From an uncultured Verrucomicrobiae bacterium (GTDB lineage: Bacteria; Verrucomicrobiota; Verrucomicrobiia; Chthoniobacterales; JAFAMB01), in assembly GCA_963813025.1 (NCBI GenBank), contig CAWEXO010000014.1, forward strand, positions 416,001 to 480,000: DNA of 64,000 nucleotides. The letters are read 5' to 3'. Under the pieces are notes generated by a model, which searched no databases, had not been told where the DNA came from, and was given only the letters and a program-made list of their open reading frames with translations. Shown one piece after another: positions 1 through 31,563 of the stretch. The stretch's first letter is position 1. Each line of letters begins with the position of its first letter. Made by a program: the position numbers and the translations under genes.

Positions 1-107
1 GCTTACCGGGACAGGTCAGAAAAGACTTGATCATGCTTATCAATCGGTGCCGGTGTATTTGCACCACATTCAACGGCAGATAATATTAAGTAGGTTGCCC
101 CGCTCGC

Positions 108-1016
108 ATGAAACTTCGTCACCTGGAATACTTTGTGGCCGCGGCTGAGGATCGGAATTTCACCCACGCAGCCTCCCGGCTGAACGTTTCCCAACCGCCC
201 TTCAGCAAACAGATCCACGACTTGGAAGCCGAACTGGGGATTGAACTCTTTCAGCGTAAACAGAAGGGCGTGGCGCTCACCTTGGCCGGTCAGTCCTTCC
301 TGATCGATGCCAAGGCCATCCTGCAAGATTGCGAGACAGCGGTGCACAAAGCCCAGCGGATCAGCCGGGGTGAAATCGGCGAATTAGCCATCGGTTGCCT
401 GCCGCCCTTAACCCACGGTTTTTTGGGGCGCGCTCTTGAGCTCTGGAGGCGCACGGCCAAGGACATCGCCGTGGACTGCGTTGAGATGGACGGCAAGGCA
501 CAGGAAGTGGCGCTGTTGGAAGGTCGCATCGATCTGGGTTTGCTGATGCGGGGCCACCGGCCCCTGCTGGAGTTGTTACGCGTACAGCACCTGCTGGATT
601 ATCCTGCCATGGTGGCGCTGCCTCGAGGGCACCCTCTGGCTGAGCGTTTGGCAGTTCCTCTGGCTCTGCTGCACTCAGAGCCGCTGATCGGGCTCAACCG
701 GTTGTGCCCGAGTTATAACGAATGGTTGCGAATGGCGTGTCGTCGAGAGGGTTTTGTCCCAAAGCTCGTCAAAGAAGCTCATGCCGCCTCCAGCGCCCTG
801 GCCTTTGTGACTGCGGGCTTTGGATTAGCGGTGGTGAGTAAACCTTTCGAGCGGGAGGGCACCGATGGGGTTGTCTTTCGCGAGTTGAGCGCGAAAAAGC
901 CCCTGCAGATGCCGGTCGGAGCCGTTTGGAAAGCGGACAGCGTGTCGGCTAGCGTCGTAGCGCGCTTTGTTGATACGTTGGTACAGGTTTGCGCGAGCGA
1001 TCAGGCGGCCGCGTAA
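108..1016 (+). CDS. LysR family transcriptional regulator
   Basis: N-terminal LysR HTH (MKLRHLEYFVAAAE..NFTHAASRLNVSQPPFSKQIHDLE), 302 aa with substrate-binding domain. Confidence 0.95.
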   Translation: MKLRHLEYFVAAAEDRNFTHAASRLNVSQPPFSKQIHDLEAELGIELFQRKQKGVALTLAGQSFLIDAKAILQDCETAVHKAQRISRGEIGELAIGCLPPLTHGFLGRALELWRRTAKDIAVDCVEMDGKAQEVALLEGRIDLGLLMRGHRPLLELLRVQHLLDYPAMVALPRGHPLAERLAVPLALLHSEPLIGLNRLCPSYNEWLRMACRREGFVPKLVKEAHAASSALAFVTAGFGLAVVSKPFEREGTDGVVFRELSAKKPLQMPVGAVWKADSVSASVVARFVDTLVQVCASDQAAA

Positions 1017-1301
1017 GCTAGCAACCTTACCTTAGGCCGGCGCGACGGAAAATGGTCGAGCGGGGCGTTCTTGCCCGGCTATAGCTAAAAGATAGGGACA
1101 ACTCATCTAAAGCAGTATGGTGGGTTTTGCTCCTTTGGGTTGACTGTGAGGAATCCGCGAGAAAGCGACATCTTTCCGGCAACGGCTTAGAGCGTCATCC
1201 CGCGCGAGGCGAGCTTTTAAGAGCACGCAGTCTCACCGGTTGACGGCGGCGCCGAGTGAGAACCCTTCAACGATGGACGCCCTGAGACTTTAAGGACTCT
1301 A

Positions 1302-1589
1302 ATGAATACCCCGCGCGTGGAATTGTTGAGACTGGGACTGCGGCTGCGAAATGCGCGAACCGCACTCGGATTCAACCAACGGAGCTTTGCCGCCGTCTGC
1401 GGCCTCCATCACACCTATGTTGGAGGAGTCGAACGCGGCGAACGCAGCGTGACCTTCTCGGGGCTGTGCACCTTGTGCGTCGCCCTTGATTGCGACGTGG
1501 CTGCACTCACCGTGGGCATCCCGGATCTTTCTCCTCCCGCTTCAAACGAACACGGCCATACCGGAAAAGCAATCGTACCTCGACCTTAA
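1302..1589 (+). CDS. XRE family HTH transcriptional regulator
   Basis: LRNARTALGFNQRSFAAVCGLHHTYVGGVERGERSVT matches the HTH_3/XRE pattern. Confidence 0.85.
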   Translation: MNTPRVELLRLGLRLRNARTALGFNQRSFAAVCGLHHTYVGGVERGERSVTFSGLCTLCVALDCDVAALTVGIPDLSPPASNEHGHTGKAIVPRP

Positions 1590-1681
1590 GGATATGAGGG
1601 ACGAAGCCGGACGTCGACGATGCTTTGTCGTGAGATTACTGACAATCCTGTCGCGCTGAGACCCGCCGCTTCGACATCTAA

Positions 1682-1888
1682 TCATTCTATGTTTTCACGC
1701 ATTCCTTTTAAGCGAAGGTGAGTGCCGCGGATCGCGGTCGGTTCGAGGCGATCGAAACTTTCAACGGCCGTTCTTGTTGCCTCGCTCACAAATCTGGTCC
1801 CGTTTACTACATGGGAAACCGTTGAGATTGTAACTTCGGCTCCCCGTGCAACGTCCCCCATCGTAGCTGCGCCCTTCATGACCGCCAA
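1682..1888 (-). pseudogene. LacI family regulator, N-terminal HTH fragment only
   Basis: ATMGDVARGAEVTISTVSHVVNGTRFVSEATRTAV is a LacI HTH; no sugar-binding domain follows. Confidence 0.85.
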
Positions 1889-1972
1889 TTTTCCCTGCTG
1901 AAACGGGAGAAACGGTTAGGCCCACCGCACGAGACGAGGTCCCCGGAAATCAGCAATCGTCGTTATCCGCTA

Positions 1973-2875
1973 TCACTTACTGGCAGCCGCTTCTTTCGCG
2001 CATTGCCAGAACTTTCCCGCAGCCAGACTGAGCCGGCCTTTTGGGGCAGCGATGCCAAAAGGCTACCGGCTTCGGCTCGGGAGTAAGTCGTAAGAGTTTT
2101 AGTCGGCGACCGACTGTATAGCCGAAGAAATCGGAAGCCAAGCCTACTCCGTTCCCGGTGCTTCGATGGCTGAAATTACACCTGAGATGTCATCAAGCTC
2201 TTCCACGATGCGCGGCTTCATCTTAGTTGGCGCAAAAATAGCAGTGAAGTAGTTATAATAGTCGCGAAAAGTCTCTCGGGCTAAGCGAATGAATGGCTCG
2301 CGGGCCGCCTCAGCTAACGAAACGTTTGGCTGGCGAGCCAGCCGATGGGTAGGCGCTACCGCCAGGCGAATTTGTTCCAACCTTAGAGTTTCAAAGCGCA
2401 GTCCGCGTAACTCGCCTGAGTTAGGTGGCCGCATAACAAAAGCTAACTGGAGGCGGCGATCGCGCAGACCGGCGAGGCTTTGTTGGTTAGGCCAGTCGTG
2501 TAACTTAACGTGTACCTTTGGCATCGCCTTCTGATAGGCACGCAAAATCGCCGGCATCATGCGCGCGGTGGCGATCGGCCAGTAGCCAATGTGAAGCTCG
2601 GTATCGCCTTTGTTGGCGATGGCTCGTACTTTGCGCACCGCTTCGTTCGCGTGCTCGAGGACGGCACGTGCTTCAAGGAGAAAGGCACGGCCTGCTTCGG
2701 TCAAGCTAACCGACTTGGCCGTGCGCTCGAGTAACCGCACGCCTAGCTCGTCCTCAAGGTCGCGAATCTGCCGGCTAAGCGAAGGCTGGGAAACGTGCAG
2801 CTTATGCGTAGCGGCACGCGAGATATTCTCCGTCTCGGCCACGGCGAGGAAGTAACGCAAGTGCCGCAGTTCCAT
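1973..2875 (-). pseudogene. LysR family regulator, frameshifted near the C-terminus
   Basis: Starts MELRHLRYFLAVAE at ATG 2875; the frame stops at 2144, but the C-terminus (GVGLASDFFGYT..PEPKP / GIAAPKGRLS..FWQCAKEAAASK*) continues in other frames to 1973. Confidence 0.85.
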
Positions 2876-2886
2876 AGTGAGTAAGT

Positions 2887-2901
2887 ATGCCTGCCGGGCA
2901 T
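2887..2901. promoter_or_regulatory. LysR recognition box (T-N11-A)
   Basis: ATGC-N7-GCAT dyad immediately upstream of the LysR start, in the divergent promoter region. Confidence 0.6.
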
Positions 2902-3135
2902 GCTGAGGCAAGAAACATGGTCTTTTACAAGATCGACATCTCGAACCAATCATTACCGCGTGAATGAACCCATCATGTGGAGCATGGAGGTCCCGAATCA
3001 GCGGGGCCCATGGAATAAACCTGCGGTCGCGCATTGGGACGCGCTCGGAGTTGCCGAGCTCGATTGCGCCTCTGCAGCAAACGTTTCAGTCCGCGAAAAC
3101 CTCGTTCCAAATCATCAAGAGGAGACTAAGTCAAA

Positions 3136-3663
3136 ATGATAACCGAGCATGACTCAGCCGTGACCCGAAAAGAGATTCGTGTCGGAATCATCGGGGCAAA
3201 CGCCAAAGCAAACTGGGCGAAGCTGTCTCACGTTCCGGCAATCAACGGTCTCCCCGGCTTGAAGCTCGCGGCTGTGGCAACGCGCAACGAGGAGAGTGCG
3301 CGGGAAGCGGCTGAAGCCTTCGGTGCCGATCGCTGGTTTTCCGATCCCTTCGCGATGATCCGCGATGACCTGATTGATGTCATAACGATCTCCATCAAGG
3401 TGCCCGCACACCGCGAACTCGTTCTGGCGGCGGTGGATGCTGGCAAAGCGGTCTACTGCGAGGCGCCTCTCGGACGCAGCGTCGCGGAGACTGAAGAGAT
3501 GGCGAGTGCGGTAGGTGCACTTTATACCGCGATCGGATTGCAGGGTCGTTTGAATCCAGCCGTGCGCCGCGCGGCCCAGTTGCTTTCTTCCGGAAAAATT
3601 GGACGACCACTAAACGCGAGAATTGTCAGCACCACCATCGGCTACGGACCGGAATTGCCGAGC
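3136..3663 (+). pseudogene. Gfo/Idh/MocA oxidoreductase, C-terminally truncated
   Basis: IRVGIIGA..HVPAI..GKAVYCEAPLG; similarity is lost after GYGPELPS, where unrelated DNA is fused. Confidence 0.85.
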
Positions 3664-3720
3664 ATCATGAGGCCCAAAATGCTTTTGCCATTGACCTCTG
3701 TGCCGTCAACACCCAGGCTC
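3655..3720 (-). pseudogene. HPr phosphocarrier fragment (Ser46 region)
   Basis: Minus strand reads VDGTEVNGKSILGLMML, the HPr Ser46 signature; the rest of HPr is not seen. Confidence 0.7.
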
Positions 3721-3938
3721 TCATTGTGGCCTTGGGCCGCGAAGCCCTTTCAGAGAACGCCGAGTGGCTCATCACTCACCGCGCGCGGCCACTCGAGCCG
3801 ATCAGAGTTTGAGAAAACAGAGTACCAGAAATTCTTTGCAAAAAAAGCACCAGAATTCTTCGGCTTAGCCGGGGAATTCTGCTGCCATGGCCTGCGTTAA
3901 TAACGAATCGTTGGCGATTTGTGATTAATGCAGGCTGG

Positions 3939-4085
3939 CTAAGGCGAGGCTAAGTGCAGCCAGTTCGTATCTGCCTTTTCAATGTTGCTGTGAATATTGC
4001 TCTTAAACGCTTTCAGCGAACCCTCATTGCCGCAGAGGTAAAGCCTGTCCTTATAGACAGTAAACGCGTCCGGCGCACAGCCGGT
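3939..4085 (-). pseudogene. YHS-domain protein, C-terminal fragment
   Basis: PDAFTVYKDRLYLC..AFKSNIHSNIEKADTNW resembles the C-terminus of YHS-domain (seleno)proteins. Confidence 0.65.
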
Positions 4086-4399
4086 TTCAGCGCTGAGTGT
4101 CTTGGTTCTGTGGTTCGGTGAGAAGCGCCCGGTCAACCGCGGCAAGCGCCAGTCAGAATTCGCACAGTGTTGCGCCTCATGCTTTGCGGGCAAAATGTAA
4201 CGAAGTGAGTTGGGCAGGTCGCGCTCACTTTTATGGTTAGGGCGTAAAATATATGCATCTAGCGGATTACCTAACCGCAGCAGTTCTCCTATAGAGACCA
4301 ACGATTGAGCACGCCTGTTGCGTGCCAGTCATCGTTGTGGACAGCCGCGAGCAGACACGCTTGTGTTTAACCGCTTGCCGGTTCGTTAGTGTTCACCCC

Positions 4400-4615
4400 G
4401 ACTTCACAGCCGGTGCCGCTCAACGACCTTTCGGCCTGGTGGCGTTGGGTTCCTGGCGCCTGCTGGCGTCACCCTGGAAGGCCCCGGTAGCAACACCATC
4501 GATCGGGAGACTCGTCCCGTGGTCAGGTTTCCTGGGATGACGCGGTGGCGTACGCCAAATGGGCTGGGAAACGGCTCCCGACTGAGGCGGAGTGGGAGTG
4601 CGCTGCACGCGGCGG
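4400..4615 (+). pseudogene. Formylglycine-generating enzyme (FGE-sulfatase) family fragment
   Basis: [40 protein letters not shown], read across frameshifts. Confidence 0.85.
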
Positions 4616-5125
4616 CCATAGAAGGTGCCACCCGAACGCCATTCTGCAGGAGTCAAGCCGGCATAGGCAGCCAACTGCCGGGCTGATTGGAATTCTTTCC
4701 CAGCTAACTCGGCCAACAACTTGGCGGCGGTGAGCTCGGCAATGCGGGAATAGAGCAAAGCAGCTTGCTCTGGCGGCTTAAAGACTGATCAGAGTCGATG
4801 AGGCCGAAGATGGCAGTCTCCAATTGGCTGACTTCGCTTTTGAGCTGTGCTAGGCGCCTTTGGCGTTGCTTGGGCGCGTACCTTTCGGACACAGCCTTGT
4901 CAACTCGGGCTCTAGTGTTCCAACCCTGTTTGGAACGGCCTATGATACGGTTCGGTCTCTTGAAAGGTGCGGCACGAGGAAGGGGGGCTAATCTACCGAA
5001 CAGGTTCTACCGACCTTTGGGCGAAGCAGTTTCCCCACCTTCCTCGGCCAAGTTCTTCACCTCTAGGGTTCCGCCCTTTCGGGCGGCTTTAAAAGGATAA
5101 AGTGTTGGTGGAGGCAAGGTACAAG
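4612..5125 (-). mobile_element. IS110 family remnant (IS621-type): left end plus internal transposase fragment
   Basis: 4612-4860 encodes LLCSIP / [30 protein letters not shown] (Transposase_20); the RuvC domain is missing; left junction CTCGCC-CT-TGTAC at 5119-5131. Confidence 0.85.
4878..5090 (-). ncRNA. Predicted bridge RNA of the IS110 remnant
   Basis: 5' hairpin CCGCCC-GAAA-GGGCGG, then two stem-closed internal loops carrying UUCGCCC/UCGGUAG and ACCGUAUC/ACAAG. Confidence 0.7.
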
Positions 5126-5219
5126 GGCGAGCCGCATTTTGACGTCTTTCAGCCACAGCAAGGCGTAATTTAACTGGCTGCAAATTTCTTAACAACCAAG
5201 CTGTTAACCCCAAAGAGTA

Positions 5220-5465
5220 ATGAAAATACGATCAAGGACAATGGAAGTCCTCAAAGCCGTGCGTTGGTGGTGGGCGGCCGCCTTTGCACTAATGCTAGCC
5301 GCCACACCGAATGCCCTCTATTCGCAACAGAAAGCAGAGCAATCGAAGAAACCTAACATCGTCGTCATCTGGGGTGACGACATTGGCTATTGGAACCTCG
5401 GCATCTACACACACGGCATGATGGGGTCGCACACCCAACATAGACAGCATTGGCCGTGAAGGGAT
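5220..5465 (+). pseudogene. Arylsulfatase N-terminal fragment
   Basis: Signal peptide, then [22 protein letters not shown] / [11 protein letters not shown] after a frameshift; ends before the catalytic CxPxR motif. Confidence 0.85.
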
Positions 5466-5675
5466 CCTCCCAAAGGACTAGTGGAGTTATACCAAAGAAA
5501 TATTAAATACTCATTGACTTCCAGTAAGGGATGGGCGTGTAAATGTGTTTGTCGGTTCCAGCGACCTTTGATTAAGGGCGTTGTTCCTTCTGTCCCCAGC
5601 GACACGGATGTTACTGGCGACGTGAGAAATCCCGCAGCAGGTCGTTAGGCGACGAGTCTTAAACCGGAGGAAACA

Positions 5676-6141
5676 ATGAAAGTTCGCTTATTTCTTACCC
5701 TGGCAGGGGTAGCAATCAGCTTTGCTGTGCCTGCCTTAATGGCGCAGGATGCCATGAAAACCGTAATGGCTGGTGAGGTGGTTTGGAAAGATGACTCGCT
5801 GTTCAAGGGGCTGCAAATCGCCAACTTGCTCGGTGATCCAGCGAAAGCCGAGACAGTCGTTATGCGCGTGAAGTTCCCTCCCAATTTTAAAATTCCGCTG
5901 CACACGCATCCTGTCTCGGAAGTCATCACTGTACTTAGCGGGACTTTTTGGGACGCGATGGGTGACGATACGGATAAAAGGTGTGATGCTAAAGCCGGGA
6001 TCACTTTTGGTGCTTCCTCCAAATCACATTCATCGTGTCTGGACAACCGACGAGGAGACGATCATCCAGCTTAGCTTCACTGGGCCGTTTGATATTACCT
6101 TCATTAATCCGGCTGACGATCCGCGAAAGAAAACCGAATAA
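5676..6141 (+). pseudogene. Secreted cupin-domain protein, one frameshift
   Basis: Signal peptide, PLHTHPVSEVITVLSG; continues in another frame as LKPGSLLVLPPNHIHRVWT..GPFDITFINPADDPRKKTE*. Confidence 0.8.
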
Positions 6142-6308
6142 CATCGAGCAAATCGACCAAGGCAGGGCACCCTCTCCTCGCCTGTCCGCCATTCCGCATC
6201 CTGCCATCATACTTAATAGCTGGTGTCCGCGAATCCAAGTCCCCGTTGCCAGAATTGATCCGTGTGGCAATATTTACGAACATTCCCTATACATAGGAGG
6301 TACGCGAG

Positions 6309-6599
6309 GTGGCAATCGTTCGTCATTCATCCTTCTCATGGACTTCGTCTGGTCCCGGACACGAGATGGCACCAGGGGAGATTCATTATTATTCATTTGA
6401 GAACTTGACGGACCAAGAGGCCGTTAGCATCGGTGTACATCCCCAGGTGACGGGATTCCCACGATGCGTTCTTGTTGTGGAAAACGTGCAGGGTGTGACC
6501 GGGTTCGGGGAGTTTAGGAATACCGAATTTCGGGTGAGGAACGCTGGGTATAACTCTGTCTGGAGTTATTCCGTCGGCATTGGCATAATCTCAGCGTAA
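6309..6599 (+). CDS. Hypothetical protein (96 aa)
   Basis: GTG start with AGGAGG 8 nt upstream; tightly linked to the next ORF. Confidence 0.65.
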   Translation: MAIVRHSSFSWTSSGPGHEMAPGEIHYYSFENLTDQEAVSIGVHPQVTGFPRCVLVVENVQGVTGFGEFRNTEFRVRNAGYNSVWSYSVGIGIISA

Positions 6600-6609
6600 A
6601 GGAGCTTTT

Positions 6610-6846
6610 ATGGTTGTCTATGCGCATCACGATTTTCACGGGAATATCCACTCACTCGTGGTCGTGAACGCGCCTGAAGGAGCAGGCGTGAGGCCCGCGC
6701 CACAACCCGGCCAATTCGTGGCGGAGGTGGAGGGTCTCGAACTAACACCCGACAAAGTCAACTTCGACACGTTGCGTGAAATCGCTGCGAGTCACGTGGT
6801 CAAGACGCCGCTCCCGCGCTGCAAGCTGGTTAAGAAGCAACAGTAG
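6610..6846 (+). CDS. Hypothetical protein (78 aa)
   Basis: ATG preceded by AAGGAG, 10 nt after the previous stop. Confidence 0.65.
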   Translation: MVVYAHHDFHGNIHSLVVVNAPEGAGVRPAPQPGQFVAEVEGLELTPDKVNFDTLREIAASHVVKTPLPRCKLVKKQQ

Positions 6847-6902
6847 CGTCGCGCGGGGTCGATTTGCCGCCATCTCCCTGCAGCACCGTTCAGCAGTAAC
6901 CT

Positions 6903-7250
6903 TTAAATCCAGTCCGGGGATTGAAAGCGATAAAGTCTGTCCTTTGCTGGTTCGTGAGAGGACAAGAGACGGACAATCGCCTTCGGTTGGGTGACGCACG
7001 GTTCCTTTCGGAAGCATGAAGACCAAGGCATCAAATGGGAACGGAATCGCTTCGAAGACCATCGGGTAGCTCCGTCCGGAGCGCGGCAGCCAGGAGTTCC
7101 GGGGAAACATAGTAGGTCGGCACGTGGTAGCGCAGGAGCAGCGCCGCTTGGCCATGAACTGCCGCAAGCGCCGGATTCGGCCTGGTCTGGTGTTCGCGAA
7201 TGCTGACGTAGTTCTGCATCGCGGCGTTCACTGACGAGACCGCTAGCACT
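6903..7250 (-). pseudogene. Frameshifted fragment of an unknown protein
   Basis: Protein-like reading PTYYVSPELLAAALRTELPD / AIPFPFDALVFMLPKG across two frames. Confidence 0.35.
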
Positions 7251-7505
7251 TTCTGAGGCCAGTCGTCGGCCGGCGCATTGATGTGCCGCGGTGTTAGCGC
7301 ACGCAGCCATCTGGATGCTCCTTCTCCAGGTAAGCGCGGACCTTGTTATAGTTTTGTAAGCGAGTGCCCACTGCGGTAGTGTATCCCCAAAACGGCTCGC
7401 GAAAACAGCCTCTCGCGAATGGGTTCGACCCCGCCGGTTTAGGTTCGCCTCGTTGTCCGTTGAACGAAAGGCAGGGGCCGTTGCCAGAAGTTCGCTGATA
7501 GAAAT

Positions 7506-7760
7506 ATGGCCTATGAAACCGTTTGTGCCTCCCTTCAGAAAAAGCGTTGTTCGAATGTTCGGCTTTACCCTTTTAGCTTCCCTGCTTACCCTGCCGCTTT
7601 TGGCGCGGGCATCACCGTTCGACTTACCGGCGAACCGGATGGTGAAGGGGCACGTTACCGCAGGGCGCTTGCCGAAGAATGGGCCCAGAAAACCGGAAAC
7701 AAGGTTGAATATTATTCGCGTCCTGGCGACGCGTCCGCGGCGCTGCAGTGGTGGCGGGAA
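7506..7760 (+). pseudogene. Sugar ABC transporter substrate-binding protein, N-terminal fragment
   Basis: ALAEEWAQKTGNKVEYYSRP is typical of the extracellular solute-binding family 1 N-terminus; signal peptide in another frame. Confidence 0.55.
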
Positions 7761-8070
7761 GACAGCCCGGGAACGCGCTCAGTTCGCCAGAAATTCCGAG
7801 TATAGGGTGGATAAGAGTGGGCTTGCCCCGATTTTCGCTGACAGAGTTTTTGGGTGATCCTTGGGTTTAGTTTTTCGCTAGAAGTCAGTTTGGCCATGGG
7901 AAGAGATGAACGCAGCGCTTCGCCCATTCTTCACTGCGCTCGGCCTATGGCACTTATGGTGTAGTCCGCTGAGATTTGATGAGAAATCGAGAGACCTGTT
8001 ATCAGTCTGGTATCATTTTCTCGGTTTTAGCCGACCAAACCACATCTAAATCATTCAAAATCAGCACAAC

Positions 8071-8421
8071 TGGAGGCGAGGGGAGTCGAACCCCTGTCCT
8101 CAAGACCGTCAAACCAAACCTCTACATGCTTAGCTGACCTTTAAAGGAGCGGATCGAATGGGTCAGCGCATCATGACCCGCTCTTGCATCCACGGGATTT
8201 TTCTCGTCCTCCGGCGCGGTTGCCCCGCCTTCAGACCAGCCTGCTGTCGTCGTCTCCGGCTTTAGCAGGCGTCCAGCCGGAAACGTCACGGTTCAATTAA
8301 GCCGCGAGAGCCAATTCTTCGTTGGCGATTATTTTTTTGACTCGGTTTTTAACGAGGCCAACGAGTCATCCTCGACATGCCGTCTGATTATCAAACCTCA
8401 AGTCGAAACCAGTACGCCCCC
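8071..8421 (-). ncRNA. ssrA: tmRNA
   Basis: 5' GGGGGCG pairs with 3' CGCCUCC-A giving G3:U70; T-arm AGGGG-UUCGACU-CCCCU; tag reading frame ANEELALAA* at 8326-8297; CCA not encoded. Confidence 0.97.
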
Positions 8422-18554: not shown

Positions 18555-18684
18555 TTCCGACTTTGGGTAATTTGTAAGTACGCCATCAAGCGATTGGTCG
18601 CGCGAGGGCTAGAGATCGTCTCAGAATGCCCCACTGTCCTGCGCCGGTAGGGCAGTATCTGAGCAGGTCTGGCAAGGGAAAAAG

Positions 18685-19959
18685 TTAAAGTTTTTCACCG
18701 ATTGGTGAGTGGCGTTTTTTGAGGACTTGGAGGTAGCGCTCTTCGTCATAAGGGGTGCGGTCCTGCCAGAGCCGGAAGATGACGCGGATCCATTTAAAGG
18801 CCAAGGCGCGCACGGCAGTGTGGTGGGACTTACCGCGGGCCATTTGCTCTTGATAATAGAGCTTGGCCCATTGGGAATAAGGAATGGAATGAGCCGCGAA
18901 TTCGTGGAAGCTCTGGCACAGGAATTTGGAGCGAAAGCGCCGCCGCTGGACGCTTTTGGTTTGGCCGCTGCGCACTTGGACCGGAGCGATTCCGCTTTTT
19001 TTCTGTACCTCCAGGGCTTGGGCAAAAGCCTGCCGATTGGAGCCAAAAGCCACCAACAAGCGCGGGGCTAATTGCGGGCCGGCTCCGGGCAGACTTTCAA
19101 AAATGTGCCGATCGGGATGTTTGGCAAACAGAGTGTGGATGGCTTTGTCAAAAGCCTTGATGGAATCTCGCAGCGGCAACAATTGACTGACCAAACACTT
19201 GCAACTCAGCACGGAGGGCTCCAGCAGAGAACGATCCTCGGTGACGGTTTGGGCCCGAGCAATCTTTTCCAAGCGCTCCTCGATCAAGCTCTGGCTGCGG
19301 CTGTGGTGCTGATAAAAAAAAGAGCGCAGGGTCTGGGGCTTGGCTTTTTTTAAACTCTGCAGGGTCGGCCAGCGTTTCAAAAAATGCAGCGCCAGAGTGG
19401 TGCCCAAATCATCGAGGAGCTCGAGGGCCAGCGGATAGTAGACTTTGAGTAAGCTGGTGAGTTGGTTTTCGCACACCACGGAGGCCTCGACGGCTTTGCG
19501 TCGGTGCTGACCGAGCAAATCCAGTTCCCGCACTACCGGCTCCGGGGGTTGATAAAGCCGGAGCCGATCCCGATGGTGATCAACGAGCTCTTCGATCAAT
19601 TGGCTGTCGCGAGGGTCATCCTTGGCGCCACTAGTAAAGAAGACCTTGCGGTATTCGCTTAAACTCAAAGGATTGAGCGGATAGAGGTCGATCCAGTCTC
19701 CCTGGGTGCGGAGCATTTCAAAGAGTGCTCCCCGATTTTGTTCAAAACCAATGGCCACCCGCCCCTGCGGACCAGCCAAGCTTTTGAGCTCTTCGAGCCA
19801 GGTCCGAACCGAAACGGGATCGGCGCCCAGCTGGAATGTCCGGCATCCTCCCTCCGGACCAGAGCGTTGACAGACAGCGTGTTCTTTATCAGCCCAATCG
19901 ATTCCCACGCTGACCATATAATGGGGATCTGGGACCGGAAACGGATTTGATCGGTTCAT
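18685..19959 (-). CDS. IS110 family recombinase/transposase
   Basis: DEDD residues (GIDWA, GFEQ, KDDPRD) and Tnp-domain GIAPVQVRSG; 424 aa uninterrupted. Confidence 0.96.
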   Translation of the reverse strand: MNRSNPFPVPDPHYMVSVGIDWADKEHAVCQRSGPEGGCRTFQLGADPVSVRTWLEELKSLAGPQGRVAIGFEQNRGALFEMLRTQGDWIDLYPLNPLSLSEYRKVFFTSGAKDDPRDSQLIEELVDHHRDRLRLYQPPEPVVRELDLLGQHRRKAVEASVVCENQLTSLLKVYYPLALELLDDLGTTLALHFLKRWPTLQSLKKAKPQTLRSFFYQHHSRSQSLIEERLEKIARAQTVTEDRSLLEPSVLSCKCLVSQLLPLRDSIKAFDKAIHTLFAKHPDRHIFESLPGAGPQLAPRLLVAFGSNRQAFAQALEVQKKSGIAPVQVRSGQTKSVQRRRFRSKFLCQSFHEFAAHSIPYSQWAKLYYQEQMARGKSHHTAVRALAFKWIRVIFRLWQDRTPYDEERYLQVLKKRHSPIGEKL

Positions 19960-20004
19960 GCTTGCTCCTTTTTTCTGGTTTTACCCAGCGCGAAAAAAGC
20001 CGCT

Positions 20005-20325
20005 TGGCTTTGGCCGTCCGAAATCCGTATAGTTAAGTCGTCGAAGTGTGAAGTGCTCGACCTCAACTAGAGTATTCGTTGTGACGAATCAAAGCGCGAC
20101 CGGCTGGCTCGAAACTCTGCCCTAAAGATCTCGCGGACCCGAAAATCCTATTCGTAGCCAGCCGGCGCGTCCTTCTTCGCGTGGGCAGCGCGGGATTTTG
20201 CCCGACTGCCCTTGGCAAAGAAAACCCTTTCTTTTTTCCAAAGCTTTCTTTTCTCCGGGCGGAGTTATTCACAAGCTGGAGCTCCGACCGGTAGGGCCTC
20301 CGACCACAGCTTGCTGAATAACTCC
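20005..20325 (-). ncRNA. Predicted bridge RNA of the intact IS110
   Basis: Two stem-closed internal loops with segments matching the target (AUUUUCG, UAGGGC) and the circle junction (AUACU, CUAUAC); ends approximate. Confidence 0.8.
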
Positions 20326-20338
20326 GGACTTGCTATAC

Positions 20339-28947: not shown

Positions 28948-29090
28948 GGTAGGGATGAGCTCCTGCTCGTCCCGATTTAGACCTGATCAGCATTAAGGAG
29001 GTCAAGCAGGAGCTTGACCTGAGCTTGACCTGAGCTTGACCTGAGCTTGACCTGAGCTTGACCTGAGCTTGACCTGAGCTTGACCCTACC
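28948..29090. repeat. Second-family REP doublet with a 7x 11-mer expansion
   Basis: (GAGCTTGACCT)x7 at 29010-29086 in the right arm. Confidence 0.9.
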
Positions 29091-31237: not shown

Positions 31238-31415
31238 GGTAGGGCGAGAATTTAGAGGCTGTCTCACAACGTGGCCTCGGCCCTGCTCCGGTAGGGGCGA
31301 AAAGTTATCCGAGCTTTAGCGAGGACTCGTTTGAGCCGGTCACAGGGGGTGTGCCAAATCTCCAAGACGGCTCAAACAAGTTCTCGCTGACGCTCGAATG
31401 AATTTTCGCCCTACC
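31238..31415. repeat. Double-armed REP doublet plus partial REP
   Basis: GGTAGGGGCGAAAAGTTATCCGAG..GAATTTTCGCCCTACC. Confidence 0.85.
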
Positions 31416-31563
31416 GATCTTGTCCGACTCGCAAACAAATATCAAATCGCACCGGCGTGCTCCAAAGTCCGATACGCCCTTTTCGCCTGTGACAAGCGGA
31501 CCCGACAAGGCAGGGCTGCGCATCTCAGTGGACCGCGCCTCCTCTTCTCAAAAGAACGACAAA

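What the first reader, a model, noticed from the sequence alone, without database searches (positions are those of the whole stretch)
4878..5131. Orphan IS621-type bridge RNA aimed at the same REP with a different crossover
Seen on the minus strand: a GAAA-capped hairpin (5086-5071), then a loop closed by CGAGGAAGG/CCUUCCUCG containing UUCGCCC (5025-5019) and UCGGUAG-AU (4999-4991). A second loop carries ACCGUAUC (4951-4944) and ACAAG (4900-4896). The guides spell target TTCGCC-CT-ACCGA, which occurs in the REP arm ending ~31417, and donor ACCGTAT-CT-TGT, close to the IS621 donor ACAGTAT-CT-TGTAT. The actual left junction CTCGCC-CT-TGTAC at 5131-5119 agrees, apart from mismatches at the distal end of the left guide. 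The recombinase has lost its RuvC domain while the RNA looks intact. Inference: two IS110 lineages converged on one REP with crossovers 3 nt apart, and this RNA might act in trans with an intact copy elsewhere.
Basis: partly seen in the sequence, partly recalled or inferred. Interest (0 to 1): 0.85.

Follow-up and report, generated by a model that had tools for sequence, protein, structure and literature searches.

The report
Leftover guide RNA of broken transposon
This is the intact guide-RNA stretch of a broken jumping gene whose complete relatives in the same genome do insert where the guide predicts, a known kind of RNA-guided element; nothing suggests that the leftover RNA still does a job.

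Summary
Window 5123-4881 (minus) is the left end and bridge RNA of an IS621-type IS110 element. The guide reading is right: this genome holds 13 relatives (7 full-length), and their junctions give target YTCGCC-CT-ACCGG and donor ACCGTAT-CT-TGTAC. Guides change together with flanks across related elements. A second IS110 family (about 23% identical protein, one copy at window 20337-18654) splits the same GTAG-type REP arm 3-4 bases away, so the convergence is real; two IS110s sharing one REP is already described in Pseudomonas putida. Corrections: the relic lost not only RuvC but also its start, C-terminus and right end (hence the junction promoter). It falls outside the resident clade, and its own flank looks like a different REP family, common in other genera of the family and not found in this genome, so it probably arrived from another host. 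Action in trans is unsupported: no promoter-like site, no RNA contig identical to it, and 0 of 12 resident insertions sit at ACCGA, which its guide would favour. The scan has noted REP-targeting IS110s before, in this genome and others. Verdict: new member of a known kind.

The parts
5126..5149 (-). Left flank: remnant of a GTAG-type REP of a family not found in this genome; its last 7 bases (5132-5126) are the left half of the target
   Evidence: Single copy in G000 and absent from 42 other genomes of the family at 1 mismatch; about 95% identical left ends in runs X6 and X18 have the same flank with 12 more bases; that longer form is a repeat with 70, 23 and 20 matches in G010, G005, G013 and 0 in G000
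5124..5125 (-). CT core
   Evidence: Shared by both junctions of resident copies
5116..5123 (-). Start of the left end (right half of the donor, TGTAC) with the -10-like hexamer TACCTT; its -35 partner lies in the right end, which is lost
   Evidence: Joining the ends of an intact copy gives TTGACA-17-TACCTT; the relic's flank gives no such -35; no promoter-like site in 4400-5800. Promoter function inferred from IS621 (PMC11208158, passages)
5071..5086 (-). 5' stem-loop of the bridge RNA (GAAA loop; GCAA in resident copies)
4970..5050 (-). Target-binding loop: left guide CTTCGCC+C (5026-5019; the next base is A, not the T of the core), inner hairpin 5016-5002, right guide TCGGT+AG (4999-4993), handshake AT (4992-4991)
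   Evidence: Register from the IS621 template; guide-flank covariation; stems; coordinates
4881..4967 (-). Donor-binding loop: left guide ACCGTAT+C (4951-4944), inner hairpin 4936-4917, right guide GT..ACA+AG (4904-4896), handshake GC (4895-4894)
   Evidence: Matches the donor read from resident junctions; IS621 template; stems
4615..4868 (-). Recombinase remnant, codons ~169-255, with a 1-base loss near 4746; joined to the RNA by a ~545-base deletion at a short GCCAA/CCCAA microhomology that removed ribosome site, start and RuvC domain
   Evidence: tblastn, alignment, Pfam PF02371 E 1.9e-9
4378..4615 (+). Fragment of an FGE-sulfatase-domain gene fused to the remnant where the element's C-terminus and right end were deleted
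   Evidence: PF03781 E 1.5e-11; 74% paralogue on C13; relatives match this stretch
18654..20337 (-). Copy of the second IS110 family (family B; 424-aa ORF 19959-18685) inserted at the G of the same host REP arm, with candidate guides at 20148-20117 (target) and 20078-20025 (donor)
   Evidence: PF01548/PF02371; junctions ATTTTC-G|TATAG at 11 of 11 left ends, GATACT|GCCCTACC at 9 of 10 right ends, ACCCTACC at 1; guides read by eye only
31405..31417 (+). Free host REP arm carrying the exact 13-mer spelled by the relic's guides
8068..8421 (-). tmRNA gene; the relic lies 2.9 kb beyond its 3' end among gene fragments (context, not part of the element)
   Evidence: Rfam RF00023, 162 bits; ORFs

Best explanation
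A dead copy of an IS621-type IS110 element. When active it worked as a bridge recombinase (mechanism taken from IS621): the excised circle joins right and left ends into a sigma-70 promoter, the RNA's two loops pair with the donor ACCGTAT-CT-TGTAC and the target (Y/G)CTCGCC-CT-ACCGA, and a RuvC-DEDD/serine tetramer swaps strands at CT. The target is the GTAG foot shared by several REP families of this bacterial family. This copy inserted into a REP type foreign to the present genome, probably came in on a stretch of foreign DNA next to tmRNA, and then lost most of its gene and its right end by two deletions that happened to miss the 240-base RNA region. It can no longer excise or rebuild its promoter and is probably silent. 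Shown: anatomy, guide-target match, copy census, separate sublineage, foreign-type flank. Inferred: horizontal arrival, silence, order of events.
For: Copy census and junctions. Guide-flank covariation: left guide mean 4.2 of 7 matches against 3.1 shuffled over 17 guide types, right guide 4.4 of 5 against 2.6 over 13 types, 0 of 10,000 permutations each (related sequences, two guides set in register by hand). Structure: 96.6% of 1342 cells paired, 8 of 48 pairs with two-sided change, 0 of 500 shuffles; relic keeps 48 of 48 pairs. Protein relative hits IS621 transposase 8wt6 at E 1e-46. The 11 resident RNA rows form a clade (96/98) without the relic; relic RNA is 93% like metagenome copies against 85-89% like residents, remnant 85% against 79%. 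Flank of foreign REP type. Short end branch (0.013) and synonymous excess in the remnant (24 syn: 13 nonsyn against L080, like 38:18 between intact relatives) point to recent breakage. Other relics lost part of the RNA instead (G000 C4:5896, L004, L009).
Against: No empty site or intact version of this locus was found, so the right half of its own target is unseen. No att duplication on C14 and no integrase seen among long ORFs near tmRNA, so the island is only inferred. The assembly is 80% complete by markers, so an intact copy of the relic's own sublineage could be missing. Read-through transcripts suffice for IS621 excision and trans action between copies was not excluded (PMC13626964, passages). 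The RNA bears no private base among 49 rows compared, which selection would also produce.
Confidence: 0.88

Rival explanations
1. The relic RNA is made by read-through and loads onto the resident recombinase in trans, shifting some insertions to CT-ACCGA arms or helping excision.
For: RNA intact, 48 of 48 pairs; same donor guides as residents and 7 full-length recombinase genes present; 52 YTCGCCCTACCGA sites in the genome; IS621 RNA works in trans from a plasmid promoter (PMC11208160, passages); extended read-through RNAs work in vitro (PMC13626964, passages).
Against: 12 of 12 resident right junctions are ACCGG although free arms are 95 GG to 56 GA (Fisher p 0.009; upper 95% bound 22% of insertions); no promoter-like site; the neighbouring genes upstream on that strand point away; RNA contigs in 3 runs differ from it by 7-12 letters and continue into intact elements.
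Confidence: 0.07
2. The relic is an old resident copy that inserted off-target at a non-REP look-alike site in this genome and then diverged.
For: Its flank shares CTCGCC-CT with the host REP arm; off-target insertions occur with IS621 (PMC11208160, passages).
Against: Outside the resident clade with a short branch; its differences from residents are shared with outside elements; the flank resembles that of near-identical elements in runs X6 and X18 over about 24 bases.
Confidence: 0.05

Closest known systems
IS621 of Escherichia coli and its bridge RNA (IS110 group; PMC11208160, PMC11208158)
   Same: RNA in the left end; 5' hairpin plus two guide loops in the same register; CT core; donor one base off on each side (ACCGTAT-CT-TGTAC against ACAGTAT-CT-TGTAT) with the right donor guide changed to match; junction promoter; target ends in CT-AC, the reverse of the GTAG foot of a REP
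   Different: Recombinase of this lineage is under 40% identical to enterobacterial IS110 proteins; the left target guide has T opposite the second core base in only 3 of 17 guide types, where IS621 pairs both core bases; the right guide matches 5 target bases naturally; this copy is broken
ISPpu9 and ISPpu10 of Pseudomonas putida KT2440 (PMC1525189, PMC12288879)
   Same: Two IS110 elements inserted in the same REP family of one genome, all copies at a fixed position
   Different: Those insert at the same point and share 57.8% similarity; here the proteins align at 22-24% identity and the crossovers are staggered, with CT against a single shared G
ssr9 / MITEPpu9, transposase-less satellite of ISPpu9 (PMC12288879)
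   Same: An RNA-coding piece without its own working recombinase beside an active IS110 family
   Different: ssr9 has both ends, forms circles, is abundant and multi-copy; the relic has one end and one copy. The closer parallel here is the deleted pair C15:124.6k / C9:218.2k
GTAG-family REPs (PMC3733652)
   Same: Host repeat arm starts GGTAGGGCGA; arms pair into ~120-base inverted units (45 of 77 pairs); GTAG repeats are reported in Verrucomicrobia
   Different: No REP-flanked RAYT gene was seen at the 3 PF01797 matches; this repeat family was not looked up by name

Membership tests
IS110 family, IS621-type | DEDD RuvC domain plus Tnp domain with catalytic serine | tested here: met
   Met for intact relatives: PF01548 and PF02371, D10/E62/D104/D107/S248 motifs located, IS621 hit
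IS110 family, IS621-type | Working recombinase gene in this copy | tested here: not met
   Only codons ~169-255 remain, frameshifted, no start
IS110 family, IS621-type | Short core repeated at both ends, no target duplication beyond it | tested here: met
   CT at 12 left and 12 right resident junctions; the relic has only its left junction
IS110 family, IS621-type | Both ends present, so that a circle and junction promoter can form | tested here: not met
   Right end absent in the relic; TTGACA-17-TACCTT forms in intact copies
Bridge RNA | 5' hairpin and two internal loops with conserved stems | tested here: met
   register agrees with the IS621 template
Bridge RNA | Target guides covary with insertion sites | tested here: met
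   0 of 10,000 permutations for each guide (related sequences)
Bridge RNA | Donor guides match the end junction | tested here: met
   the donor hardly varies in this set, so covariation was seen only against IS621
Bridge RNA | Left target guide pairs both core bases | tested here: not met
   Ninth base is A in the relic and T in 3 of 17 guide types; a lineage-wide departure that includes recently spread copies
Bridge RNA | Is transcribed from this locus | tested here: inconclusive
   3 RNA runs, contigs only, none identical to the relic
Bridge RNA | Binds recombinase and directs recombination | not testable with these tools
   needs an assay
Non-autonomous IS110 satellite (MITEPpu9-like) | Both ends kept and several copies | tested here: not met
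   One copy, one end
GTAG REP / REPIN (host target) | Abundant GTAG-footed palindromic repeat | tested here: met
   TCGCCCTACCG 180 times against 3.6 expected
GTAG REP / REPIN (host target) | Associated RAYT gene flanked by the repeat | tested here: inconclusive
   3 PF01797 matches, no host arm within 1.5 kb of them; assembly 80% complete

The most novel reading that the evidence does not exclude
The GTAG foot TCGCCCTACC, shared by different REP families of this bacterial family, is a cross-genus landing pad contested by several IS110 lineages, and a bridge RNA imported with a dead element is read through and used by the resident recombinase, giving it a second guide that opens the 52 CT-ACCGA arms its own guide skips: natural guide transfer between hosts.
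Probability: 0.06. Interest if true: 0.62.

Novelty: new member of a known kind. Interest (0 to 1): 0.3.

Why it matters
As it stands: a clean natural confirmation that the IS621 guide code can be read from raw sequence in a distant phylum, plus a small panel of naturally reprogrammed bridge RNAs (17 left-guide and 13 right-guide types) with a 5-base right guide and an unpaired second core position, useful to people who engineer bridge recombinases. It also gives a case of two very distant IS110 recombinases using one REP foot with different cores. If the relic RNA did act in trans, guides could spread without their enzymes, which my two literature searches on orphan or non-autonomous bridge RNAs did not show for a bridge RNA.

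Tried and rejected
Rfam at gathering score: only tmRNA in the window. blastn of the left end against E. coli genomes: no match; the E. coli plasmid IS110 fetched for comparison (L099) did not have an IS621-like left end by eye, so the IS621 template came from the paper's supplement. First hand-written structure was out of register in three helices (70.7% paired) and was redone. Minimum-energy folds pair the guides internally and do not by themselves give the bridge form. Search for a further, more distant stand-alone copy of the RNA in the genome: none. Search for an empty site: no listed match spans the locus in 42 family genomes, but only 6 candidates a genome were scored and 47 matches were not listed. 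att duplication of the tmRNA end on C14: none; G+C and host-REP density do not mark the region off. The relic's extended flank was found in 1 of 99 loci (its own) and 0 of 42 other genomes. Literature searches: (IS110 + bridge RNA + Verrucomicrobia: 0 papers).

Full report
Observation. The strand folds better than shuffles (z -2.93, 1 of 200 as good). Rfam lists only tmRNA (8068-8421) in the window. The window is G000:C14:416001-480000 of a 4.42-Mb, 16-contig assembly, 80% complete by markers. Named records holding close relatives of the element are Verrucomicrobiota, some labelled Chthoniobacterales; I infer a host of that group.

The family in this genome. The 266-base left end hits 13 other places at 87-89%; a profile search finds the same 14 places and nothing else under E 0.3. 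The 13 are: 7 full-length copies of 1322-1323 bases with a 336-aa reading frame, 1 with an in-frame deletion of 27 codons, 1 split by another element (IS3-like by recall, not tested), 3 with internal deletions but both ends, and 1 that lost the 5' half of the RNA. A relative's protein carries PF01548 and PF02371 and hits IS621 transposase (8wt6, E 1e-46). Of 15 matches to the left-end motif, 2 are unrelated chance hits and 1 is the relic; the 12 resident left junctions lie in the host repeat arm, 11 reading YTCGCC-CT|TGTAC and 1 TTCGCT-CT. All 12 right ends read ACCGTAT-CT|ACCGG. Joining the ends of an intact copy gives TTGACA-17-TACCTT, the junction promoter described for IS621 (PMC11208158, passages).

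The RNA. Against the IS621 template in the supplement of PMC11208160 (one scanned PDF of that supplement could not be searched and two files are cut) the relic reads in the same register: left target guide CTTCGCC+C, AACCTGT, right guide TCGGT+AG, handshake AT; left donor guide ACCGTAT+C, right donor guide GT..ACA+AG, handshake GC. The GT answers the AC of TGTAC where IS621 has AT for TGTAT. On 28 sequences picked from 50 distinct RNA regions (near-duplicates, partial and distant rows left out) a bridge-type structure of 48 pairs holds in 96.6% of 1342 cells, with two-sided changes at 8 pairs (0 of 500 shuffles; slid controls 36-54%). The structure was drawn from this alignment and the relic, so these controls lean in its favour. 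The relic keeps 48 of 48 pairs. Across relatives the guides track the flanks: left guide 4.2 of 7 against 3.1 shuffled (17 guide types), right guide 4.4 of 5 against 2.6 (13 types), 0 of 10,000 permutations each (one broken RNA dropped, two guides re-registered by hand, several one-base register shifts left as misses, sequences related). Examples: guide CACAAAG with flank CT-TTGTG, CTTGTAG with CT-ACAAG, CCCGAAG with CT-TCGGG. Misfits exist: TAGCTAG copies sit at CT-ACCT and one CCCGGAG copy at CT-ACCGC. One departure from IS621: the ninth left-guide base is T in only 3 of 17 types.

What is broken. A deletion of about 545 bases joins the end of the RNA to codon 169 at a short microhomology, removing ribosome site, start and RuvC; one base is missing near 4746; after codon 255 the sequence runs into a fragment of an FGE-sulfatase gene, so the C-terminus and right end are gone. 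The copy cannot form a circle or its promoter. No sigma-70-like site was found in 4400-5800 (0.8 expected), and the nearest upstream genes lie on the other strand.

Where it came from. The 11 distinct resident RNA rows form a clade (96/98) that excludes the relic, whose end branch is 0.013 (47 rows, 3 partial rows left out, bootstrap not fully settled). Its RNA is 93% like several metagenome copies and 85-89% like residents; its gene remnant is 85% like L080 and 79% like residents, with a synonymous excess similar to that between intact relatives, which fits recent breakage. Its left flank occurs once in the genome. Contigs of two RNA runs (X6, X18) hold left ends about 95% identical, with no difference listed in the target guides, whose flank is the relic's plus 12 bases. 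That longer form is a different GTAG repeat: 70, 23 and 20 matches in G010, G005 and G013, single matches in 2 more, none in G000 or the other 295 of 301 genomes. Both repeat families end in TCGCCCTACC, so one guide fits both. The relic lies 2.9 kb from the 3' end of tmRNA among gene fragments; no att duplication on the contig or integrase was seen and no empty site was found. Horizontal arrival is therefore inferred, not shown.

Convergence. A second IS110 family (424 aa, 22-24% identity in two local alignments) has 10 full copies, one at window 20337-18654. Its 11 left ends follow ATTTTC-G, and its right ends read GATACT|GCCCTACC in 9 of 10. In the arm ATTTTCGCCCTACCGG family B shares the G and family A the CT: 3 bases apart by first shared base, 4 by last. 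The arm core TCGCCCTACCG occurs 180 times against 3.6 expected, often as ~120-base inverted pairs. Precedent: ISPpu9 and ISPpu10 insert at the same point of the P. putida REP (PMC1525189, passages; PMC12288879, passages and first part of the Discussion); IS621 itself targets REPs (PMC11208160, passages); GTAG repeats are reported in Verrucomicrobia (PMC3733652, passages).

Action in trans. It is chemically plausible: IS621 RNA works in trans, read-through transcripts support excision and trans action among copies was not excluded (PMC13626964, passages). But the one distinguishing prediction fails: the relic's right guide spells ACCGA, residents' ACCGG; free arms are 95 GG to 56 GA of 229, yet 12 of 12 insertions are GG (Fisher p 0.009; at most about 22% relic-guided at 95%). 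No RNA contig in 3 runs is identical to the relic (contigs only, so no proof of silence). Other relics lost RNA rather than gene, so survival of the RNA needs no selection. The better sign of trans action in this genome concerns the protein: C15:124.6k and C9:218.2k share the same RuvC-breaking deletion, are 99.5% alike and sit in different flanks.

Verdict. A real IS621-type bridge RNA on a dead, probably imported element; the guide reading and the two-family convergence are right and have precedent; function of the leftover RNA is unsupported. Searches for a description of this lineage or of orphan bridge RNAs returned 0, 1 and 2 papers (ISPpu9 paper; one review seen only as a listing); subscription papers and bioRxiv supplements were not covered. 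Other papers were seen as listings only. New member of a known kind, interest 0.3.

Noticed in passing
G000:C15:123.6-124.6k and C9:218.2-219.2k; also C12:154.6-155.2k: Two copies of a second resident sublineage share the same deletion of codons 83-181, are 99.5% alike, keep both ends and the RNA, and sit in different REP flanks; a third has a larger deletion. No intact copy of this sublineage is in the assembly. Suggests movement with a recombinase supplied in trans.
   Followed up: partly
G000:C4:5746-5896: A relic in which a repeat-internal TCTTCGCC is fused directly to the left target guide, removing the 5' half of the RNA; L004 shows a similar fusion of a REP arm to the RNA.
   Followed up: partly
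window 20337-20280 (family B left end): The family B left end contains GGCCCTACCGG, a partial copy of the family A target, about 40 bases in; three B left ends carry a 13-base tandem duplication of the end.
   Followed up: no
window 20338 / 18653: Family B shares only one base (G) between target and donor; already noted by an earlier finding on this genome.
   Followed up: partly
G000, about 12 places (e.g. C2:77098, C11:436681): A third IS110-like family (436+ aa) ending GTTTCTTAGGAG with varied right flanks, two of them in the host repeat at other positions; further scattered IS110 genes on C13 and C3.
   Followed up: no
L045, L054, L057, L058, L059, L061, L062, L073, L086: A sublineage whose left guide sits one base out of register with the relic's and whose target is GTCGCCG-CT-ACCG, always after GGACA.
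   Followed up: no
L022-L026: Five recent copies whose right guide TAGCTAG mismatches their own right flank CT-ACCT at one inner position.
   Followed up: no
window 1-8068: Run of LysR regulators and gene fragments (oxidoreductase, FGE-sulfatase, a 79-aa piece that looks like an arylsulfatase start by recall, no Pfam hit) beyond the tmRNA 3' end; possibly a decayed island.
   Followed up: partly
window 29006-29084: Tandem array of a 10-base unit (GAGCTTGACCT-like, about 8 copies) ending in CCCTACCGA next to a REP arm.
   Followed up: no
run X6, laid on window 4868-5133: A 298-base RNA-library contig of a 95% relative covers just the left end at depth 86, a weak hint that this RNA is expressed in soil; it includes 15 bases of host flank.
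   Followed up: no
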